From NCBI GenBank assembly GCA_963695555.1, contig CAVOGR010000002.1:256001-320000 (forward strand): a stretch of 64,000 nt of DNA. The letters are read 5' to 3'. The notes beneath the pieces are model-generated. The model had not been told where the DNA came from. It did not search any database and worked only from the letters and a program-made list of their open reading frames with translations. Positions within the stretch are counted from its first letter, which is position 1, and each line of letters begins with the position of its first letter. Positions 1,534 to 60,032 of the stretch are shown piece by piece. This DNA comes from an uncultured Gemmatimonadales bacterium (GTDB taxonomy: Bacteria > Gemmatimonadota > Gemmatimonadetes > Gemmatimonadales > GWC2-71-9). The position numbers and the translations under genes were made by a program.

Positions 1534-3669
1534 TCAAAATGCCAGCTGCTCCTCCATCGCCCGCTTCAAGTCGGCAACCTGGGGCAGGGTGACGTCCTCG
1601 AGCTGAGGCGCATATGCCACGAAGGTGTCGGTCGCCGCGACCCGTCGAACCGGCGCATCGAGGAATGGGAACGCTTCGTCGGCAAGGCGACTCGCGATCT
1701 CAGCGCCGTAGCCCCAGGAGAGCGAGTCTTCATACGCCACCAAGGCCCGGTTCGTCTTTCGCACCGACGCGTAGATTGTGTCCCAATCCACCGGCGAAAG
1801 AGATCGCAGATCGATGATCTCGACTCGCGCGCCGTGCTCTTCCTCCACTGCTTTTGCCGCGGTCAACGCACGCTGCACCACCGCCCCGTAGGTCACAACC
1901 GACAGGTCGCTGCCTTCCCTTACCACCTTTGCCTTGCCGAGGGGAATCATGAAATTCGGGCCGGGATAGGGGGCCTTGTTATAGGTCTGTCGGTACAGGT
2001 GCTTGTGCTCGAGGAACAGTACCGGGTCCGCGCAGCGAATGGCGGTTCGGAGAAGGCCGTTGGCGTCGAGCGCGGTGGACGGACACACCACCCGGAGGCC
2101 GGGCACGCCGGTGAAGATCGCGGCCCCGGTTTGCGAGTGATAGATCGCCCCACCCTTCAGGTAGCCGCCGTAGGTCACGCGGACAACCACGGGCGCTGAG
2201 AAGTGGTTGTTGGAGCGATAGCGCATGAGCGCCAACTCGTTCCGGATCTGCATGTAGGCCGGCCAGATGTAGTCGAAGAACTGGATTTCGACCACAGGCT
2301 TGAGACCGCGAATGGCCAAGCCGATCGCCCGGCCAACGATGTTGGCTTCGGCCAGCGGTGAGTTGTACACCCGGTGGCTGCCGAATTCGCGTTGCAGGCC
2401 CCACGTGACCTTGAAGACGCCGCCCTTTCCTTTGACCTCGTCGAGGTGGGCCTCGCGACTTACATCGGCCACATCTTGCCCGAACACGAGGATCGAGGGA
2501 TCACGCGCCATCTCATCCCGGAGACAGGCATTCAACAAATCGACCACCGTCGTCGGATTGCCGCTGAAGTGCGGGTCGTCTTCAGTATCAAATTGCTCCG
2601 ACGTCGGGTCGACATCGGGAGAGTAGACGTAGTGATACACCGTGTCTGGGGCTGGCTGCGGCGACGCGAGCGCAATGTCCGTCGCCACTTGGACCTCCTC
2701 GTCGACCTCCTCTGCGATACTCGCGAGTTCGGCCTCGGTCGCGATGCCCTCGTTCTGGAGGTACTGCGGGAAATGCACCAGCGGGTCGCGGGTCGTCTCG
2801 GCCTCCCGTTCTGAAGCGGATCGGTACTGCGCCTCATCGTCGGAAAGGGAGTGACTGTAAGGGCGAATGACATGGGCATGCACCAGGGCCGGTCCCTTGC
2901 GTTGTCGGGCATGCTCCATGGCTCGCCCCAAGGCATCGTAAGACGCCAAGGGATCGCAGCCATCGACTTCTTCGAGATAGAGGTTCGGAAACCCGGTGAC
3001 CAGCTTCGAAATGGAACCGCCGGCCGTGTTTACCTCAACGGGCACCGAAATCGCGTACTCATTGTCCTCGATCAGGTAGACGATCGGCAACTTGAGATTG
3101 CACGCTGTATTCAGCGACTCCCAGAATTCCCCCTCGCTGGTTGTGCCATCACCCGCGGAGCAAAACACGACTTCGTCATCGTGAAACAGCGTCTCATGGT
3201 CGGGAATGTCCGAATTCTGACTGAAGCGCAGCCACGCTTCCGCCGTTCCCACCGCTTGGAGGAACTGGGTCCCCGTCGGACTCGACGCGCTCACGATGTT
3301 GAGGTCCTCGTGTCCCCAGTGCGACGGCATCTGCCGGCCGCCGGAGTTCGGGTCATCGGCCGACGCGACGGCAGAAAGCAGCTGTTCCGTGGCCGTCATA
3401 CCGAGGCCAAGACACAGCGCACGATCGCGATAGTAGGTGTAAAACCAGTCATAGCCGGCGCGGAACACCTTCGCAGCGGCCACCAATACCGCTTCATGGC
3501 CAGCACCCGAGATCTGGAAGAAGATCTTGTTCTGCCGCTTGAGTTGGATCTCCTTGTCATCGATCCGGCGCGACAGGAGCATCAGGCGATAGATGTCCAA
3601 CAAGTCTGCCTTGTCGAGCTTGGAGGAAGCGGGCGCCTTGGTACCACGGTTGGAAGTGCTTTGTGCCAT
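1534..3669 (-). CDS. 2-oxoacid dehydrogenase E1, fused alpha/beta (probably branched-chain 2-oxoacid dehydrogenase)
   Basis: 711 aa; GGRQMPSHW, ThDP motif GDG...N ([15 protein letters not shown]...NEYAIS), HSLSDD loop, beta-domain EIQFFDY and FLEHK. Confidence 0.93.
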
Positions 3670-3714
3670 AGAGGTTACGGAATGTGGCTGGTCAGGGGTG
3701 GATGAGCGGGCCCA

Positions 3715-4890
3715 CTAAGATACCCCGGGGCCCGGCGACTGCGGGAGGTCCCGACTCGCGGTGTGATGGTCGGATTCCTTCTTCCGTGCGCCGTGCGGCT
3801 CCAACCAGTCGAGCGGCAAATCCCTGCGCGTCATCTCCTCCGAGCACCAAGTGAGGATCCGGCGACGGACCTCCTGCGGCACATCCTTGTGTCGGTCCGC
3901 CGTCCCTTTGACGAAGAGCCTGGCTTCCGTTGCCAAGATGTGCGGCGGCCCCATCTCGAAGGTGTCTCCGTGCCGTTGCATGTACTCGAAGCTGCACTTG
4001 GTGAGAACCCGTGCGAGTTCTTCGTCGGTGAGCGGTGCCAGACCCAGGAAGCCCGCGACCTGTCGGGTGATACCGGGCAAATCACGTTTCATAGCTTCGA
4101 AGTGGACGAAGAGCACGTTGCCATTCTGCTTTGATCGCTGCCACCAGCCGTCCACATGAGCCGGCCAAGTTCCCCACCACATCAGCTCGTCCGAGCAATA
4201 CCACCGCTCCGCCTCATCGAGACGCGGCGCAAAGGCGCCCATGTTGGTGTGGAGGAAATCTACGCAGCTCGCAAAGCACGACACCGGGTGCCGCGCGACG
4301 TAGACGTACTTCGCTGCGGGGTCAAAGGGACAAAGCGACGCGGGTAAATGGGTCTTGATGATTCGCGATGGGCGCTCGGCCCCGATCAGCGGCGCGTCAT
4401 CCACAGACACACTCTTTAACGCTTCGAGCCACGGCGACACGGCATACAGGGCGGTGCCCGAGGTGACCAGATCTCCGTTGCCGCGCTTGAGGATTTCGTA
4501 AACGAGATGCTGCATCCATGTCGTCCCGCATTTCATCTGCGTGACCACGAAGACGTCTTCGGCTTGGGCCTGGTAGGCGAATCCCCGCTCGAAGCTCTCG
4601 GGACTGCACGTCCCTTTCGGTCCGGCGATCCCTTCCACGCGAAACGTGGCCTTGGCCAAGGCACCGTCGCTGAACCGGCCGAGCAGGCGCAGGATGGGAG
4701 ACAGCAAGATGGCGTGACGCCGCAGCGTCTGCTTGAACTGGTCTCGCTCAACAGCGGGGAGTCCGTAATACGCCAGGCCCCGGGTCTTCTCGTCTTCCCA
4801 TCGGAGCACCACCGCAAGGTAGATGAACTCGACAACGAGGGACCCGAAGAGGCCGACAACGACCACAACACCCCACATCACTGGACTCAA
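3715..4890 (-). CDS. Sulfotransferase-domain protein with N-terminal membrane anchor
   Basis: PAPS 5'-PSB-like MKCGTTW, IIKTHLP, YVARHPVSCFAS; hydrophobic N-terminus. Confidence 0.85.
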   Translation of the reverse strand: MSPVMWGVVVVVGLFGSLVVEFIYLAVVLRWEDEKTRGLAYYGLPAVERDQFKQTLRRHAILLSPILRLLGRFSDGALAKATFRVEGIAGPKGTCSPESFERGFAYQAQAEDVFVVTQMKCGTTWMQHLVYEILKRGNGDLVTSGTALYAVSPWLEALKSVSVDDAPLIGAERPSRIIKTHLPASLCPFDPAAKYVYVARHPVSCFASCVDFLHTNMGAFAPRLDEAERWYCSDELMWWGTWPAHVDGWWQRSKQNGNVLFVHFEAMKRDLPGITRQVAGFLGLAPLTDEELARVLTKCSFEYMQRHGDTFEMGPPHILATEARLFVKGTADRHKDVPQEVRRRILTWCSEEMTRRDLPLDWLEPHGARKKESDHHTASRDLPQSPGPGVS

Positions 4891-13761: not shown

Positions 13762-13852
13762 TCCGCCCGATAAGAGCACACCCGGAGCGATCCGGGGCCG
13801 CAAAACTAGAGGTCTCCCCTAGCGGGTGAGATAGCTCGGTGCCGAAGGTGGA
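13762..13852 (+). ncRNA. GEMM-I (c-di-GMP-I family) riboswitch, A20 variant (candidate 3',3'-cGAMP sensor)
   Basis: P1 TCCGCC/GGTGGA; GCACACC-CGGA-GCGA-TCCG-GGG-CCGCAAAAC (GNRA-capped P2); GGTCT...GATAG receptor stem; TGCCGAA 3' end. Confidence 0.85.
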
Positions 13853-44915: not shown

Positions 44916-44987
<72 letters not shown>

Positions 44988-57770: not shown

Positions 57771-58772
57771 ATGGAGACCCGCACATCCGAGCGCTCGACC
57801 CGCCCGGCCATCGACCTGACCCATGCGCCGCTGGGCGAACGCGTCCAAGAACCGTTTGTCGTCGTCGCGGTCGATCACCGCGGAATCGATGAACCGTTCA
57901 CGGTGCTTACTCTCGGCAACCGCACCGGACGGATCGAGACGGCCCCGTTTTGGCTGAAAGACCTGCCCCGTGTGACCGGCATCGTGAAGGGCGACGTGGC
58001 CCAGGTCATCGGAGAGATCGCCTCGTATCACGACCGGCGACAGCTCAAGGTCAGTTCACTTCGCGTGCTGCCGAAAGACATGGTCGATTGGTCCGACCTG
58101 CTGCCGTCGATCGGGGATACTGGTCCCTATTGGGATGCGGCGGATCGGTGGCGGTCGACGATCGTCCGCCCCAGGCTGCGGGCGGTGATCGACCTGTTCT
58201 TCGCGGACCCGGAGTTTCGCCTACGCTTCGGAGCCTGCCCCGCAAGCCTGAACGAGCACCACGCCGCCCTGGGCGGGGTGCTGGTGCATACGGTGGAGGT
58301 GGCGAGGATTGCCCGGACAATTGCCCGGGTGTGCCATGCCGAAGTCGATGTGGCCGTGGCCGGGGCCTTGCTTCACGATATCGGAAAGACCGAGGCCTAC
58401 CGCTGGTCGGGAGGATTCGATCTCTCCGAGCGTGGGACCTTGCACGGCCCACAGGTGCTTGGAGCGGACTTGCTCGCTCAGCGGGTCCGGTCCGTCACGG
58501 CACCGGCCTGCACCGAGCACGAGCTGGCTCTCCTGCAGCACTTGGTGCTTGCGCAGTCGGATACGCGTCCGCATCGCTCTCCCGTGGTTCCGGCAACCCT
58601 CGAGGCCTTGGTCATCCATCACGCAGACCGAGCCAGTGCCCAAACCGCAGGGCTAGCCGAGGCGCCCCCTTGGGGGACAGGCGCGCCGGGCGATCTCTTG
58701 ATCACATTGGCGAACGTCCGAGGCCCCGACGGGCAGCAGGTGTTTCGTGGGGCCAGCGATTGGGGGGCGTAG
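57771..58772 (+). CDS. OB-fold + HD-domain protein (YhaM/Cbf1-like)
   Basis: N-terminal OB fold (LTLGNRTGRIE), PA...HHAALGGVLVHT, LLHDIGK, EALVIHHAD. Confidence 0.82.
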   Translation: METRTSERSTRPAIDLTHAPLGERVQEPFVVVAVDHRGIDEPFTVLTLGNRTGRIETAPFWLKDLPRVTGIVKGDVAQVIGEIASYHDRRQLKVSSLRVLPKDMVDWSDLLPSIGDTGPYWDAADRWRSTIVRPRLRAVIDLFFADPEFRLRFGACPASLNEHHAALGGVLVHTVEVARIARTIARVCHAEVDVAVAGALLHDIGKTEAYRWSGGFDLSERGTLHGPQVLGADLLAQRVRSVTAPACTEHELALLQHLVLAQSDTRPHRSPVVPATLEALVIHHADRASAQTAGLAEAPPWGTGAPGDLLITLANVRGPDGQQVFRGASDWGA

Positions 58773-58790
58773 GTCCGCATAGACCAGATA

Positions 58791-58834
58791 CAAAAGAGGG
58801 ACGGCCGTCTGGCTCTTAACCAAACGACCGTCCC
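58791..58834 (-). terminator. Intrinsic terminator, minus strand
   Basis: 15-bp stem 58798-58812/58820-58834 whose two mismatches are G-U only on minus, followed by TCTTTT. Confidence 0.75.
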
Positions 58835-59215
58835 ACACATCAGCTACCCGAGGCCGGGGCTCGCGCCGCCGTTCTTCTCCCACCCGCCGCCGCTTGGCTG
58901 ATGCGCCGATCGGTAGGGCTAGGTGAGGCCTCAGCTTCCATCCCCAGGCCGGATGGCCCTCCCACCTGGTTCGTTGATGCGAGCGCTGCGAGTCAGATCG
59001 GGTCGCGGACCGACCTTTCGCACTGCACCCCGAGGCGCCACATCGGGGTGGATGAAGCGCGCGACTGGCTTCATCCGCCTCGGTCGAGGTGATCACCGGA
59101 ATCAAACGGCCGCCTGAGCCCTTGGTGCTTGGCAACCTCTCCCGATAACTCGCCGAAGCTCACTCGCCGGTCGTACCCAGAATTCAGGGATCCCAAGCCG
59201 GTCCCAACGAGTGAC
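58835..59215 (-). ncRNA. Candidate large structured non-coding RNA, family not recognised
   Basis: No credible ORF; at least eight helices; flanked by a promoter-like sequence and a terminator. Confidence 0.6.
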
Positions 59216-59221
59216 GACCCA

Positions 59222-59249
59222 AAGATAAGGCCCAGGCAAAACGGCACAA
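59222..59249 (-). promoter_or_regulatory. sigma70-like promoter for the candidate ncRNA
   Basis: TTGTGC-N16-TATCTT on minus. Confidence 0.45.
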
Positions 59250-59283
59250 GTGCCTGTCTTTCTTCGGGTTACGCGATTCGGTC

Positions 59284-59376
59284 TGTGGATAGATGTGGAG
59301 CATTAAGCCCTGATATCGGTATCAGGTAGGGGGGCTCTCCACAGGGTGTGGAGATGTTGATTACTGCTTCTCCACA
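59284..59376. promoter_or_regulatory. Cluster of DnaA-box-like 9-mers
   Basis: TGTGGATAG 59284, TGTGGAGCA 59294, CTCTCCACA 59335, TGTGGAGAT 59347, TTCTCCACA 59368. Confidence 0.5.
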
Positions 59377-59423
59377 CCTGGTGATAGATGGTTGCCGAAG
59401 GTGCCGCGGTTGTGGAGTGGTCC

Positions 59424-60032
59424 TCAGGACTCGAGACCGACCTCGATATATCGGAACGACGAGTCCAGTTCGGTCGGGAGGAACAAGCACCCTGCGGAGC
59501 CAGCGGCGAACCACCCGCCGAGCAACGCCCGGGGAACATCGAGTTCCTGGATCACCGGACCCAACCAGCGGCGCAGGTGCCGCACCTCGGGGGCCCGCCG
59601 CGCCAGGACCGACAGCAGGGCCCCACCGCCGGGTGTCGCACGGAGAAAATGTGCCAGCGCATGGGCGCGCTGTCTGAATTCCACGGCCTTGACGCCCGGT
59701 TCGTCGAACAGCACGGCTCCCTCCAGCAGAGCGGTGGGCGGGGCGTCGAGCCGCGGGCCGAGATACACGTATTGGCGCGACTTCTTGATCTTACGCTCTA
59801 CTACCGCGGCACCGGTCTCGCTCGTGAGCCGCGCCGCATGCAGCTGGTCGTCGTCGTGCAGGATGCCGACTGCCGCCGTCCATTCGAGGGCCGAAAGGGC
59901 GGATTCGATGGGACAGCCTCCATCGTCGGTGGCGACTAGCCTCGGCGCTTCCCCGGCACGAAGCATGAAGTGCGCAAGGCCTTCGGCCCGGTCCATAAAT
60001 GTCCGGACGACAAGAATTTGTGGCAGAGTCAT
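59424..60032 (-). CDS. Hypothetical protein (202 aa)
   Basis: GAGG + ATG; internal repeat RAEGLAHFMLRA / RAHALAHFLRA. Confidence 0.72.
   Translation of the reverse strand: MTLPQILVVRTFMDRAEGLAHFMLRAGEAPRLVATDDGGCPIESALSALEWTAAVGILHDDDQLHAARLTSETGAAVVERKIKKSRQYVYLGPRLDAPPTALLEGAVLFDEPGVKAVEFRQRAHALAHFLRATPGGGALLSVLARRAPEVRHLRRWLGPVIQELDVPRALLGGWFAAGSAGCLFLPTELDSSFRYIEVGLES

What the first reader, a model, noticed from the sequence alone, without database searches (positions are those of the whole stretch)
58791..59249. Unassigned ~420-nt multi-stem non-coding RNA with its own promoter and terminator
Seen (plus coordinates): helices TCACTCGCCGG 59160-70/59204-14, ATCGG 58909-13/59142-46, AGGGCT 58915-20/59117-22 (long-range closure), GGATGAAGC 59050-58/59068-76, CACCCCGA 59026-33/59043-50, a stem at 58987-59022, CCAGG 58944-48/58965-69 and CATCAGC 58838-44/58897-903. 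Most mismatches become G-U on the minus strand. It is bounded by TTGTGC-N16-TATCTT and a U-tailed terminator, with no downstream gene on that strand, so it is not a cis-acting leader. It lacks the hallmarks of RNase P, tmRNA and SRP RNA. Inference: a trans-acting large structured RNA, possibly an undescribed class.
Basis: partly seen in the sequence, partly recalled or inferred. Interest (0 to 1): 0.85.

Follow-up and report, generated by a model that had tools for sequence, protein, structure and literature searches.

The report
Large structured RNA of Gemmatimonadales
This is a gene for a folded RNA of about 430 bases that makes no protein, is kept in two families of uncultured Gemmatimonadales bacteria almost always beside the same unknown protein gene, matches no catalogued RNA family, and has no known job.

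Summary
The finding is real. Window 59218 to 58790 (minus strand) is a stand-alone non-coding RNA gene of about 430 nt. It has a conserved promoter (TTGTGC-N16-TATCTT) and a 17-bp intrinsic terminator. It matches none of the 4227 Rfam 15 families.

Homologues run full length in 120 loci, and all the named ones are Gemmatimonadales MAGs. On 89 non-redundant copies, 97.6% of cells pair against 86.3% in shuffles, and 46 of 75 pairs show compensatory changes.

five of eight are conserved. The two "long-range closure" helices are not supported.
- **Core:** three hairpins (P3-P5), probably tied by two loop pseudoknots. This part survives in reduced forms with cores of only 107-173 nt.
- **Distribution:** a covariance model finds the RNA in 73 of 151 genomes of the phylum, in two families only. 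An orphan 202-aa protein encoded next to it has the same distribution, genome by genome. One of 47 RNA-bearing relatives lacks the protein.
- **Expression:** contigs from three metatranscriptome studies cover the RNA gene alone.

Best reading: a new class of large structured RNA, functionally coupled to the adjacent protein as OLE RNA is to OapA. Its biochemical function is unknown. This scan met the same family twice before on other DNA.

The parts
58790..59218 (-). Predicted transcript of the structured RNA (about 430 nt), from about 4-7 nt downstream of the -10 box to the end of the U tract
   Evidence: Alignment of 89 non-redundant homologues and RNAalifold. RNA-library contigs span 58787-59250, 58825-59198 and 58834-59197. 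No codon periodicity, and 191 of 200 gaps are not multiples of 3.
59244..59249 (-). -35 box TTGTGC (family consensus TTGCGC)
   Evidence: TTGNNN-N15-18-TANNNT is kept in 84 of 89 copies.
59222..59227 (-). -10 box TATCTT (family: TATATT 29, TATCTT 28 of 84)
59250..59272 (-). Conserved A-rich block directly upstream of the -35 box (GTAACCCGAAGAAA...GGCAC); candidate UP element or factor site
   Evidence: An AA(C/A)CCGAA block is found in 83 of 89 copies.
59284..59416 (.). Array of TCCACA/TGTGGA boxes (DnaA-box-like) upstream of the promoter
   Evidence: 6 of the window's 23 hexamer matches lie here. It is the densest such cluster in the genome. It is conserved at the same places in relatives of both families.
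59161..59213 (-). P1, a 5' hairpin that varies in sequence and is missing in some genera and in the paralogues
   Evidence: Per-pair counts (up to 6 pair types per position).
59077..59159 (-). P2, a long three-part arm with the conserved apex CAAGGGCUCAGG
   Evidence: for example pair 77/124: C-G 40, G-C 23, A-U 22.
59051..59075 (-). P3 hairpin. Its loop GUCGCG (59060-59065) is one strand of candidate pseudoknot PK1.
   Evidence: helix 1: 6 of 8 pairs covary and 99.3% of cells are paired. Helix 2 is PK1.
59026..59050 (-). P4 hairpin. Its loop GCGC (59035-59038) is one strand of candidate pseudoknot PK2.
   Evidence: helix 3: 4 of 7 pairs covary. Helix 4 is PK2.
58985..59023 (-). P5 hairpin. 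Its apex CGCGAC (59002-59007) pairs with the P3 loop (PK1). The GCGC just 3' of it (58983-58986) pairs with the P4 loop (PK2).
   Evidence: PK2 middle pair: C-G 54 / U-A 35, 0 exceptions in 89, at least 2 changes on the tree. PK1 end pair: G-C 86 / A-U 2 / G-U 1.
58836..58981 (-). 3' domain, closed by the long-range helix P6 (58973-58981 with 58836-58844) and holding P7 (58944-58969), P8, P9 (58877-58928) and P10 (58855-58871). It is largely deleted in some genera.
   Evidence: helix 7: 8 of 8 pairs covary; also helices 8-14. Searches show deletions of 76-127 model positions.
58790..58834 (-). Intrinsic terminator: 17-bp stem 58798-58834 and U tract 58790-58797
   Evidence: Covarying stem (pairs 390-429). 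Terminator-like in 87 of 89 copies.
59424..60032 (-). Gene of the orphan 202-aa protein P0001, the candidate partner of the RNA
   Evidence: Adjacent in 59 of 60 long loci. Same distribution as the RNA. No family in Pfam, NCBIfam, PADLOC or PHROGs.
57771..58772 (+). Convergent gene for a YhaM-like HD-domain protein (candidate 3'-5' exoribonuclease); loosely linked
   Evidence: PF01966 at 5.3e-10. NF010007 YhaM at 1.1e-19, 70.6 bits, far below its cut-off of 460. Present beside the RNA in 20 of 60 loci.

Best explanation
This is a stand-alone gene for an abundant, stable, structured non-coding RNA of about 430 nt. It belongs to an undescribed family confined, as far as searched, to two GTDB families of Gemmatimonadales. 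The RNA is built around a nearly invariant core of three hairpins (P3, P4, P5), probably locked together by two loop pseudoknots. Accessory domains surround the core: the 5' hairpin P1, the arm P2, and a 3' multi-helix domain closed by P6. Some genera have lost these accessory domains. I read it as a trans-acting RNA that works through its folded shape rather than by antisense pairing, and that is functionally coupled to the orphan 202-aa protein encoded beside it. Most likely it is that protein's binding partner in a ribonucleoprotein, as OLE RNA is with OapA. Shown here: the gene, its ends, the fold, its non-coding nature, its presence in RNA libraries, and the co-distribution and adjacency with the protein. 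Inferred: physical binding to the protein, action in trans, and any biochemical role.
For: - **No known family.** Rfam 15 gives nothing at gathering or relaxed thresholds.
- **Fold.** z is -3.86 on the minus strand only.
- **Homologues.** 120 are full length from promoter to terminator; 89 are non-redundant, at 56-90% identity to the window's copy.
- **Covariation.** 97.6% of cells pair against 86.3% in shuffles (0 of 500 shuffles reach it) and 38-42% when partners are slid. 46 of 75 pairs change on both sides. Single pairs changed 4 to 32 times on the tree.
- **Not coding**.
- **Gene ends.** Promoter kept in 84 of 89 copies, terminator in 87 of 89.
- **Distribution of the RNA.** The covariance model R1 finds it in 73 of 151 genomes of the phylum: f1 70/71, f3 2/2, f2 0/31, nine other families 0/46.
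- **Distribution of the protein.** P0001 is found in the same 73 of 151 genomes with the same per-family counts, one copy each. In 61 relatives the RNA is in 47 and the protein in 46.
- **Adjacency.** The two genes are adjacent in 59 of 60 long loci. They stay adjacent in f3, where the protein gene is convergent instead of tandem.
- **Core survives reduction.** Reduced RNAs keep P3-P5 while the protein stays 61-75% identical.
- **Expression.** RNA-library contigs of three studies cover the RNA gene and not the protein gene. Pieces of related copies of the core reach contig depths of 2238-3870 in one sediment run.
- **Precedent.** The adjacency of ole to a gene of unknown function led to the OLE-OapA complex (PMC11332333, one passage of the Introduction read).
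Against: - **No binding test** was possible with these tools.
- **The protein is acidic.** Median pI is 5.46 and median net charge -6 over 62 homologues, which is unusual for an RNA-binding protein, although 13 arginines are invariant or nearly so.
- **One exception.** Genome G021 (99% complete) has the RNA but no P0001. Another reading frame sits in its place.
- **Paralogues.** Extra RNA copies in 18 of 73 genomes have no extra protein copy.
- **Co-absence is weak evidence.** G025 and G058 lack both genes, but adjacent genes go missing together with a single assembly gap.
- **Expression data are limited.** They are assembled contigs, which cannot show true ends, strand or level. One RNA-library contig spans the whole 1.4 kb and may be DNA.
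- **Weak promoter match.** The promoter scores only 7 of 12 against the sigma-70 consensus, and the scan did not call it.
Confidence: 0.6

Rival explanations
1. It is a new ribozyme or the catalytic RNA subunit of an RNP enzyme, in the manner of RNase P RNA with its small protein. P0001 would be the cofactor.
For: The RNA is large, with multi-domain architecture. It has two candidate pseudoknots and many invariant unpaired nucleotides in junctions. It has a dedicated co-distributed protein. It is abundant in RNA libraries.
Against: No substrate, cleavage site or chemistry can be named. The canonical RNase P RNA is present elsewhere. Nothing distinguishes catalysis from scaffolding in these data.
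Confidence: 0.12
2. It is a functional analogue of 6S or Ms1 RNA: an abundant RNA that binds and stores RNA polymerase. This would fill a gap, since no canonical 6S RNA is detected in this order.
For: RF00013 finds no 6S RNA in the own genome or in any of 61 relatives. The RNA is abundant, has a well-conserved promoter and lies 41-135 kb from dnaA in six genomes. Ms1 shows that lineage-specific RNAP-binding RNAs exist (PMC9130861 and PMC4191392, abstracts in search listing).
Against: The consensus fold is a branched set of hairpins with pseudoknots, not a rod with a central bubble. Family f2 lacks both this RNA and a detectable 6S, so the distributions are not complementary. The 6S model rings in only 5 of 14 control genomes, so its silence says little. 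A dedicated partner protein is not a feature of 6S or Ms1.
Confidence: 0.07
3. It is the RNA half of a type III-like toxin-antitoxin or other defence pair with P0001.
For: An RNA gene and a small protein gene are tightly linked.
Against: The RNA has no tandem repeats. P0001 matches no PADLOC or PHROGs model. The protein is single copy and inherited with the family at a stable origin-proximal place rather than patchily. One genome keeps the RNA without the protein.
Confidence: 0.03
4. It is a cis-acting element of the P0001 messenger (a 3' UTR or processed tail), or a leader of another gene, not an independent gene.
For: In family f1 it lies downstream of P0001 on the same strand. One RNA-library contig runs from 59230 to 59466 at low depth (3.2).
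Against: It has its own promoter, conserved in 84 of 89 copies, with a conserved upstream box array. In f3 the protein gene is convergent, yet the RNA keeps the same promoter and boxes. The gap to P0001 varies from about 120 to 900 nt. A terminator is followed by a convergent gene.
Confidence: 0.03

Closest known systems
OLE RNA and its OapA/OapB/OapC partners (Rfam RF01071; PMC12054373, PMC10898510 and PMC7936274 abstracts in listing; PMC11332333 one passage)
   Same: Both are large, intricately folded, highly conserved bacterial ncRNAs of unknown chemistry. Both are lineage-restricted stand-alone genes, encoded beside a protein gene of unknown function. For OLE, that neighbouring protein proved to be the binding partner.
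   Different: There is no sequence or structure match. This RNA is about 430 nt against about 600. It occurs in Gemmatimonadales, not Bacillota. The partner candidate is a soluble, acidic orphan protein, not a membrane protein. No binding has been shown here.
6S RNA (RF00013) and Ms1 RNA (PMC9130861, PMC4191392, abstracts in listing)
   Same: All are abundant, stable, lineage-adapted ncRNAs with their own promoter and terminator. No canonical 6S RNA was found in this order.
   Different: The fold is branched and pseudoknotted, not a rod with a bubble. The family distributions are not complementary. This RNA has a dedicated neighbouring protein.
Other orphan large structured bacterial RNAs (raiA motif, ROOL, GOLLD, HEARO; names recalled; raiA: PMC10861870 seen in listing only)
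   Same: They share the same kind of evidence: size, covariation, conserved unpaired nucleotides and unknown function.
   Different: None of their Rfam models matches. This RNA is chromosomal, vertically inherited and origin-proximal, with no sign of phage or mobile context in the flanks examined.
RNase P RNA with RnpA
   Same: Both pair an RNA of about 400 nt with one small protein. Both are housekeeping-like, single-locus and origin-proximal.
   Different: The genome has its own type A RNase P RNA at C2:401595-401974 (299.6 bits). There is no resemblance in sequence or fold.

Membership tests
Any Rfam 15 family | Match to a covariance model at or near its gathering score | tested here: not met
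   Whole window at gathering threshold: only a tRNA and a c-di-GMP-I riboswitch, both elsewhere. Region 58600-59450 at E up to 10: three matches of 11.6-18 bits against cut-offs of 59-90.
6S RNA (RF00013) | Match to the 6S model | tested here: not met
   No match in the region, in the genome or in any of 61 relatives. The model rings in only 5 of 14 control genomes.
6S RNA / Ms1 RNA | Rod-like helix with a large central bubble (feature recalled; 'structurally related to 6S' from the abstract of PMC9130861) | tested here: not met
   The consensus structure is a series of separate hairpins plus a closed multi-helix domain.
6S RNA / Ms1 RNA | Binds RNA polymerase holoenzyme or core | not testable with these tools
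   Needs pull-down or RIP-seq.
OLE RNA (RF01071) | Match to the OLE model; about 600 nt; Bacillota | tested here: not met
   No match. About 430 nt. Gemmatimonadales.
OLE RNP | Adjacent gene for the membrane protein OapA | tested here: not met
   The adjacent protein P0001 has no Pfam or NCBIfam family and no membrane-like stretch (largest 19-residue Kyte-Doolittle mean 1.31).
RNase P RNA, tmRNA, SRP RNA | Being the genome's copy of that RNA | tested here: not met
   Canonical copies lie elsewhere: RNase P at C2:401595-401974, SRP at C1:841776-841873, tmRNA at C5:134479-134845. ARAGORN finds nothing in the region.
Riboswitch or other cis-acting leader | A regulated gene downstream on the same strand | tested here: not met
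   A terminator at 58798-58834 is followed by a convergent gene.
Type III toxin-antitoxin RNA (ToxI-like) | Tandem repeats of a short unit next to an endoribonuclease toxin gene (feature recalled) | tested here: not met
   No tandem repeat in 58700-59450. P0001 matches no PADLOC model.
Protein-coding gene | Conserved frame, codon-phase variation, gaps in multiples of three | tested here: not met
   Column entropy by phase is 0.60/0.63/0.57. 191 of 200 gaps are not multiples of three. The 160-aa frame 58653-59135 has no Pfam family.

The most novel reading that the evidence does not exclude
The RNA and the orphan protein form a new housekeeping ribonucleoprotein of Gemmatimonadales. The double-pseudoknotted RNA core would be the active (possibly catalytic) centre. 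Its production would be tied to chromosome replication through the DnaA-box-like array in front of its promoter and its origin-proximal position.
Probability: 0.2. Interest if true: 0.92.

Novelty: categorically new. Interest (0 to 1): 0.78.

Why it matters
Large, intricately folded bacterial RNAs with conserved tertiary structure are few. Each one understood so far does fundamental work (RNase P, tmRNA, SRP, 6S), and the orphan classes such as OLE are long-standing puzzles.

This family adds another class, from a phylum that is abundant in soils and sediments and almost unstudied at the RNA level. It comes with three handles that most orphan RNAs lack:

- a candidate protein partner with a matching distribution;
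- natural minimal versions that point to a core of about 100 nt;
- a conserved control region.

Heterologous co-expression, binding tests and cryo-EM become possible even though no member of the two families is known to me in culture.

Tried and rejected
- **6S RNA.** The search in the own genome and 61 relatives found nothing in any family, so it does not discriminate.
- **Fold of P0001.**
  - AlphaFold2 gave a confident model (pLDDT 87.4).
  - Foldseek on PDB gave no match at E <= 0.001; the best was E 1e-2 with TM about 0.2.
  - A profile search of PDB sequences gave a best E of 0.3.
  - The ESM Atlas gave nothing above 0.87 and no family.
  - I therefore assign no fold, and I do not claim the fold is new.
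- **Remote homologues of P0001.** A profile against 1.84 billion representatives gave 136 hits, which I read, from their scores, lengths and matched ranges, as the same family or fragments of it.
- **Origin of replication.** The cumulative GC skew on contig C2 has a broad minimum between about 280 and 480 kb. It fits an origin near dnaA at 398 kb but does not exclude the box array at 315 kb.
- **Boxes inside dnaA.** Three TCCACA boxes lie in dnaA coding sequence and are not regulatory evidence.
- **Uninformative expression data.** Run X1's 1967-nt contig covers everything and may be DNA. The 20 runs I did not lay are not counted as evidence.
- **Mutual information.** A scan over all column pairs was dominated by the split into two clades. 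Only one non-nested pair stood out.
- **Neighbourhood beyond the two flanking genes.** It holds glutamine synthetase, a menaquinone biosynthesis gene, response regulators, an M48 peptidase, LemA, a MerR-type regulator and a Big_2/LVIVD protein. These gave no functional lead.
- **Literature.** Four full-text searches and look-ups in the 50-genome and 26-genome surveys found no mention of Gemmatimonad* RNAs. I did not read their supplements.

Full report
**What is at the coordinates**

The region 58790-59250 holds no convincing protein gene. Rfam 15 gives nothing for it. At gathering thresholds the whole window yields only a tRNA (44916-44987) and a c-di-GMP-I riboswitch (13765-13846). A permissive scan of 58600-59450 gives three chance-level rows of 11.6-18 bits against cut-offs of 59-90.

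The minus strand of 58791-59225 folds to -216.6 kcal/mol against -193.7 +/- 5.9 for dinucleotide shuffles (z -3.86, 0 of 100 shuffles as good). The plus strand gives z -1.21. An intrinsic terminator lies on the minus strand at 58834..58798: 17 pairs, a loop of 3, and the tail TCTTTTGT.

The strict sigma-70 scan called no promoter.

**Organism and relatives**

A degenerate 24-mer from the conserved core hit 120 stretches of the genome collection; the tool estimates about 460 in the whole collection. Of the 80 that were listed, 65 carry Gemmatimonadales, Gemmatimonadetes or Gemmatimonadota titles and 15 carry other titles. A profile made from the first 30 relatives matched all 65 of the former and none of the 15 others (my comparison of the two lists). 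The window therefore comes from a Gemmatimonadales genome, and the other 15 are chance pattern matches.

120 loci hold the element full length, from promoter to terminator. Thinned at 93% identity, they leave 89 sequences, 56-90% identical to the window's copy.

**The fold**

RNAalifold on the 89 sequences, mapped to the window, gives these elements:

| Element | Window coordinates | Note |
|---|---|---|
| P1 | 59213-59161 | variable 5' hairpin |
| P2 | 59159-59077 | long three-part arm, conserved apex |
| P3 | 59075-59051 | hairpin |
| P4 | 59050-59026 | hairpin |
| P5 | 59023-58985 | hairpin |
| P6 | 58981-58973 with 58844-58836 | long-range helix closing the 3' domain |
| P7-P10 | within the 3' domain | enclosed by P6 |
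| Terminator | 58834-58798 | covarying stem |

On the core alignment A1 (89 rows, 265 columns), with the structure I wrote out including two pseudoknots:
- 97.6% of 6665 cells form standard pairs, against 86.3 +/- 0.3% when 3' letters are shuffled (0 of 500 shuffles reach it).
- When partners are slid by 1-3 columns, pairing falls to 38-42%.
- 46 of 75 pairs change on both sides, against 30.6 in shuffles and 16-22 when slid.

These controls have known weaknesses for related sequences. I therefore also counted changes on a tree: single helix pairs switched state 4 to 32 times. The fold does not rest on one inherited change.

The region is not coding. Column entropy by codon phase is 0.60/0.63/0.57, and 191 of 200 gaps in the core are not multiples of three.

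- Five of eight are the conserved ones: P1, P3, P4, P5 and P7.
- The strand at 58838-44 is real, but its conserved partner is 58973-58981, where all 8 pairs covary, not 58897-903.
- The proposed long-range ATCGG helix is contradicted.
- The AGGGCT helix joins two conserved stretches but shows no compensatory change and several mismatches. About ten sequences lack the 5' stretch while keeping the 3' one.

**Candidate tertiary pairs**

- **PK1.** The P3 loop GUCGCG is the exact complement of CGCGAC at the P5 apex. The six pairs are standard in 89 of 89 sequences. Five never vary. The end pair reads G-C 86, A-U 2, G-U 1. The A-U form recurs in the copies of family f3. A local extension of the P5 stem is an alternative I cannot exclude.
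- **PK2.** The P4 loop GCGC pairs with GCGC just 3' of P5. The middle pair reads C-G 54 and U-A 35 with no exception, from at least two changes on the tree.

Both are supported only thinly and need testing.

**Distribution**

A covariance model of the core (R1: 244 positions, 67 pairs) finds the RNA in 73 of 151 genomes sampled across the phylum. By family the counts are f1 70/71, f3 2/2, f2 0/31, and nine other families 0/46. In the 61 nearest genomes it is in 47: f1 35/36, f3 11/12, f2 0/12. Plain DNA search had found only 41.

18 of the 73 genomes hold two or three copies. The extra copies I fetched lack P1, are more diverged, and carry other promoter-like sequences.

In several genera the copy beside the protein gene is reduced. 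Some lack 76-127 positions of the 3' domain. In three loci the promoter runs almost straight into P3. All keep P3-P5 and the PK2 partners. P3-P5, about 100 nt, is therefore the part that cannot be lost.

**The neighbouring protein**

Upstream on the same strand lies a 202-aa frame (59424-60032, P0001). The overlapping plus-strand frame is less conserved (62-66% against 73-77% identity in the same loci) and is a shadow.

P0001 is found beside the RNA in 59 of 60 loci with 1.5-kb flanks. Across the phylum sample it is in the same 73 of 151 genomes with identical per-family counts, always as one copy. In the 61 relatives it is in 46.
- The one discordant genome, G021 (99% complete), has the RNA with its promoter but another reading frame where P0001 should be.
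- G025 and G058 lack both. Since the genes are adjacent, that could be one assembly gap each.
- In f3 the protein gene is convergent with the RNA instead of tandem, yet still next to it.

Adjacency therefore does not depend on co-transcription.

P0001 has no family in Pfam, NCBIfam, PADLOC or PHROGs. Its 891 word-indexed relatives include none with a Pfam domain among the 120 listed, and wherever a source names them they are called hypothetical proteins of Gemmatimonadales or Gemmatimonadota. A profile over 1.84 billion representatives finds 136 hits, which I read, from their scores, lengths and matched ranges, as the same family or its fragments.

AlphaFold2 gives a confident alpha/beta model (pLDDT 87.4, pTM 0.84) with two similar beta-alpha-beta-alpha-beta-beta-beta halves. 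No structure search gave a clear match.

The family is acidic (median pI 5.46), which speaks against a simple RNA-coating role. It does keep 13 invariant or nearly invariant arginines and several histidines and acidic residues.

**Expression**

17 runs on record as RNA hold part of the 1.4-kb stretch I asked about. I laid four of them, all kept as assembled contigs:

| Run | Contig span | Depth | Notes |
|---|---|---|---|
| X2 | 58787-59250 | 11.4 | a contig of depth 3.2 runs upstream (59230-59466) |
| X8 | 58825-59198 | 15.7 | identical to the window; nothing on the protein gene |
| X11 | 58834-59197 | 22 | sequencing adapters at both ends; nothing on the protein gene |
| X1 | whole stretch | 14.7 | one 1967-nt contig; may be DNA |

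In X8, short contigs that match only the conserved core at 90-95% identity have depths of 2238-3870. I read these as the same RNA from other species in that sediment.

Contigs cannot show true ends, strand or level, and I laid no DNA run. This is a hint of a discrete, abundant transcript, not proof.

**Control region and genome position**

From about 60 to 190 nt upstream of the promoter lies an array of TCCACA/TGTGGA boxes.
- Six of the window's 23 matches lie in 59284-59416.
- It is the densest such cluster in the 3.57-Mb assembly.
- The same boxes stand at the same places in relatives of both families, including f3, where the protein gene is not upstream. They therefore belong to the RNA gene.
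- They resemble DnaA boxes (TTATCCACA, a recalled consensus). One group of paralogues has an even closer match just upstream of its -35 box.

The dnaA gene is 83 kb away, and the skew minimum is broad. In six genomes with long contigs the RNA lies 41-135 kb from dnaA. It is consistently origin-proximal, as highly expressed genes often are.

**What it most likely is**

It is a new class of large structured RNA that acts through its fold and is functionally tied to P0001. The nearest precedent is OLE RNA, whose partner OapA was first suspected from gene adjacency (PMC11332333, one passage read). It is not a member of that family or of any other tested.

The rivals are a ribozyme or RNP enzyme, a 6S/Ms1 analogue, a toxin-antitoxin pair and a cis-acting element. 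Each is set out with its evidence in its own section of this report.

**Earlier notes and unpublished genomes**

Earlier notes of this scan describe the same family in two other genomes (e1-4773820, e1-2335932) with the same verdict. Another note reports a DnaA-box-preceded large RNA in Magasanikbacteria (e1-1282752). I could not compare that RNA with this one.

Two unpublished genomes (G018, G099) are among those counted. They give one row of A1 and two of A2.

Noticed in passing
window 59284-59416 (C2:315283-315416): An array of TCCACA/TGTGGA (DnaA-box-like) hexamers lies upstream of the RNA promoter. It is the densest in the genome and is conserved in position in both families. One group of paralogous RNA copies has a closer DnaA-box match right before its -35 box. 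It could be a DnaA-controlled promoter, a DnaA-titrating site or another factor's site.
   Followed up: partly
G000 C2:314835 against dnaA at C2:397812; also G002, G034, G038, G159, G173: The RNA gene lies 41-135 kb from dnaA in all six genomes with long enough contigs, so it is consistently origin-proximal.
   Followed up: partly
window 57771-58772 (+): The convergent neighbour is a YhaM-like HD-domain protein, a candidate 3'-5' exoribonuclease. It is found beside the RNA in 20 of 60 loci. It might trim the RNA's 3' end, or it might be plain synteny.
   Followed up: no
L211-L220 (paralogous copies in G168, G098, G157, G153, G094, G035, G093, G077): Second and third RNA copies lack P1 and have no second P0001 gene. 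They fall into at least two promoter types. One has a recurring CTTCA-N~17-GGTGTAGGTTG-like sequence that may belong to an alternative sigma factor.
   Followed up: partly
L017 (G021:C50) 600-1330: In one genome the P0001 gene is replaced by an unrelated reading frame that starts like a secreted protein. The RNA, its boxes and its promoter remain there, and P2 is shortened.
   Followed up: partly
window 13765-13846 (+): A c-di-GMP-I riboswitch aptamer scoring 48.6 bits against a gathering score of 35.
   Followed up: no
L208 2548-2770 (C2:398859-399081): The dnaA-dnaN gap has one TCCACA box and a markedly A+T-rich run. It is a plausible unwinding element of the replication origin.
   Followed up: no
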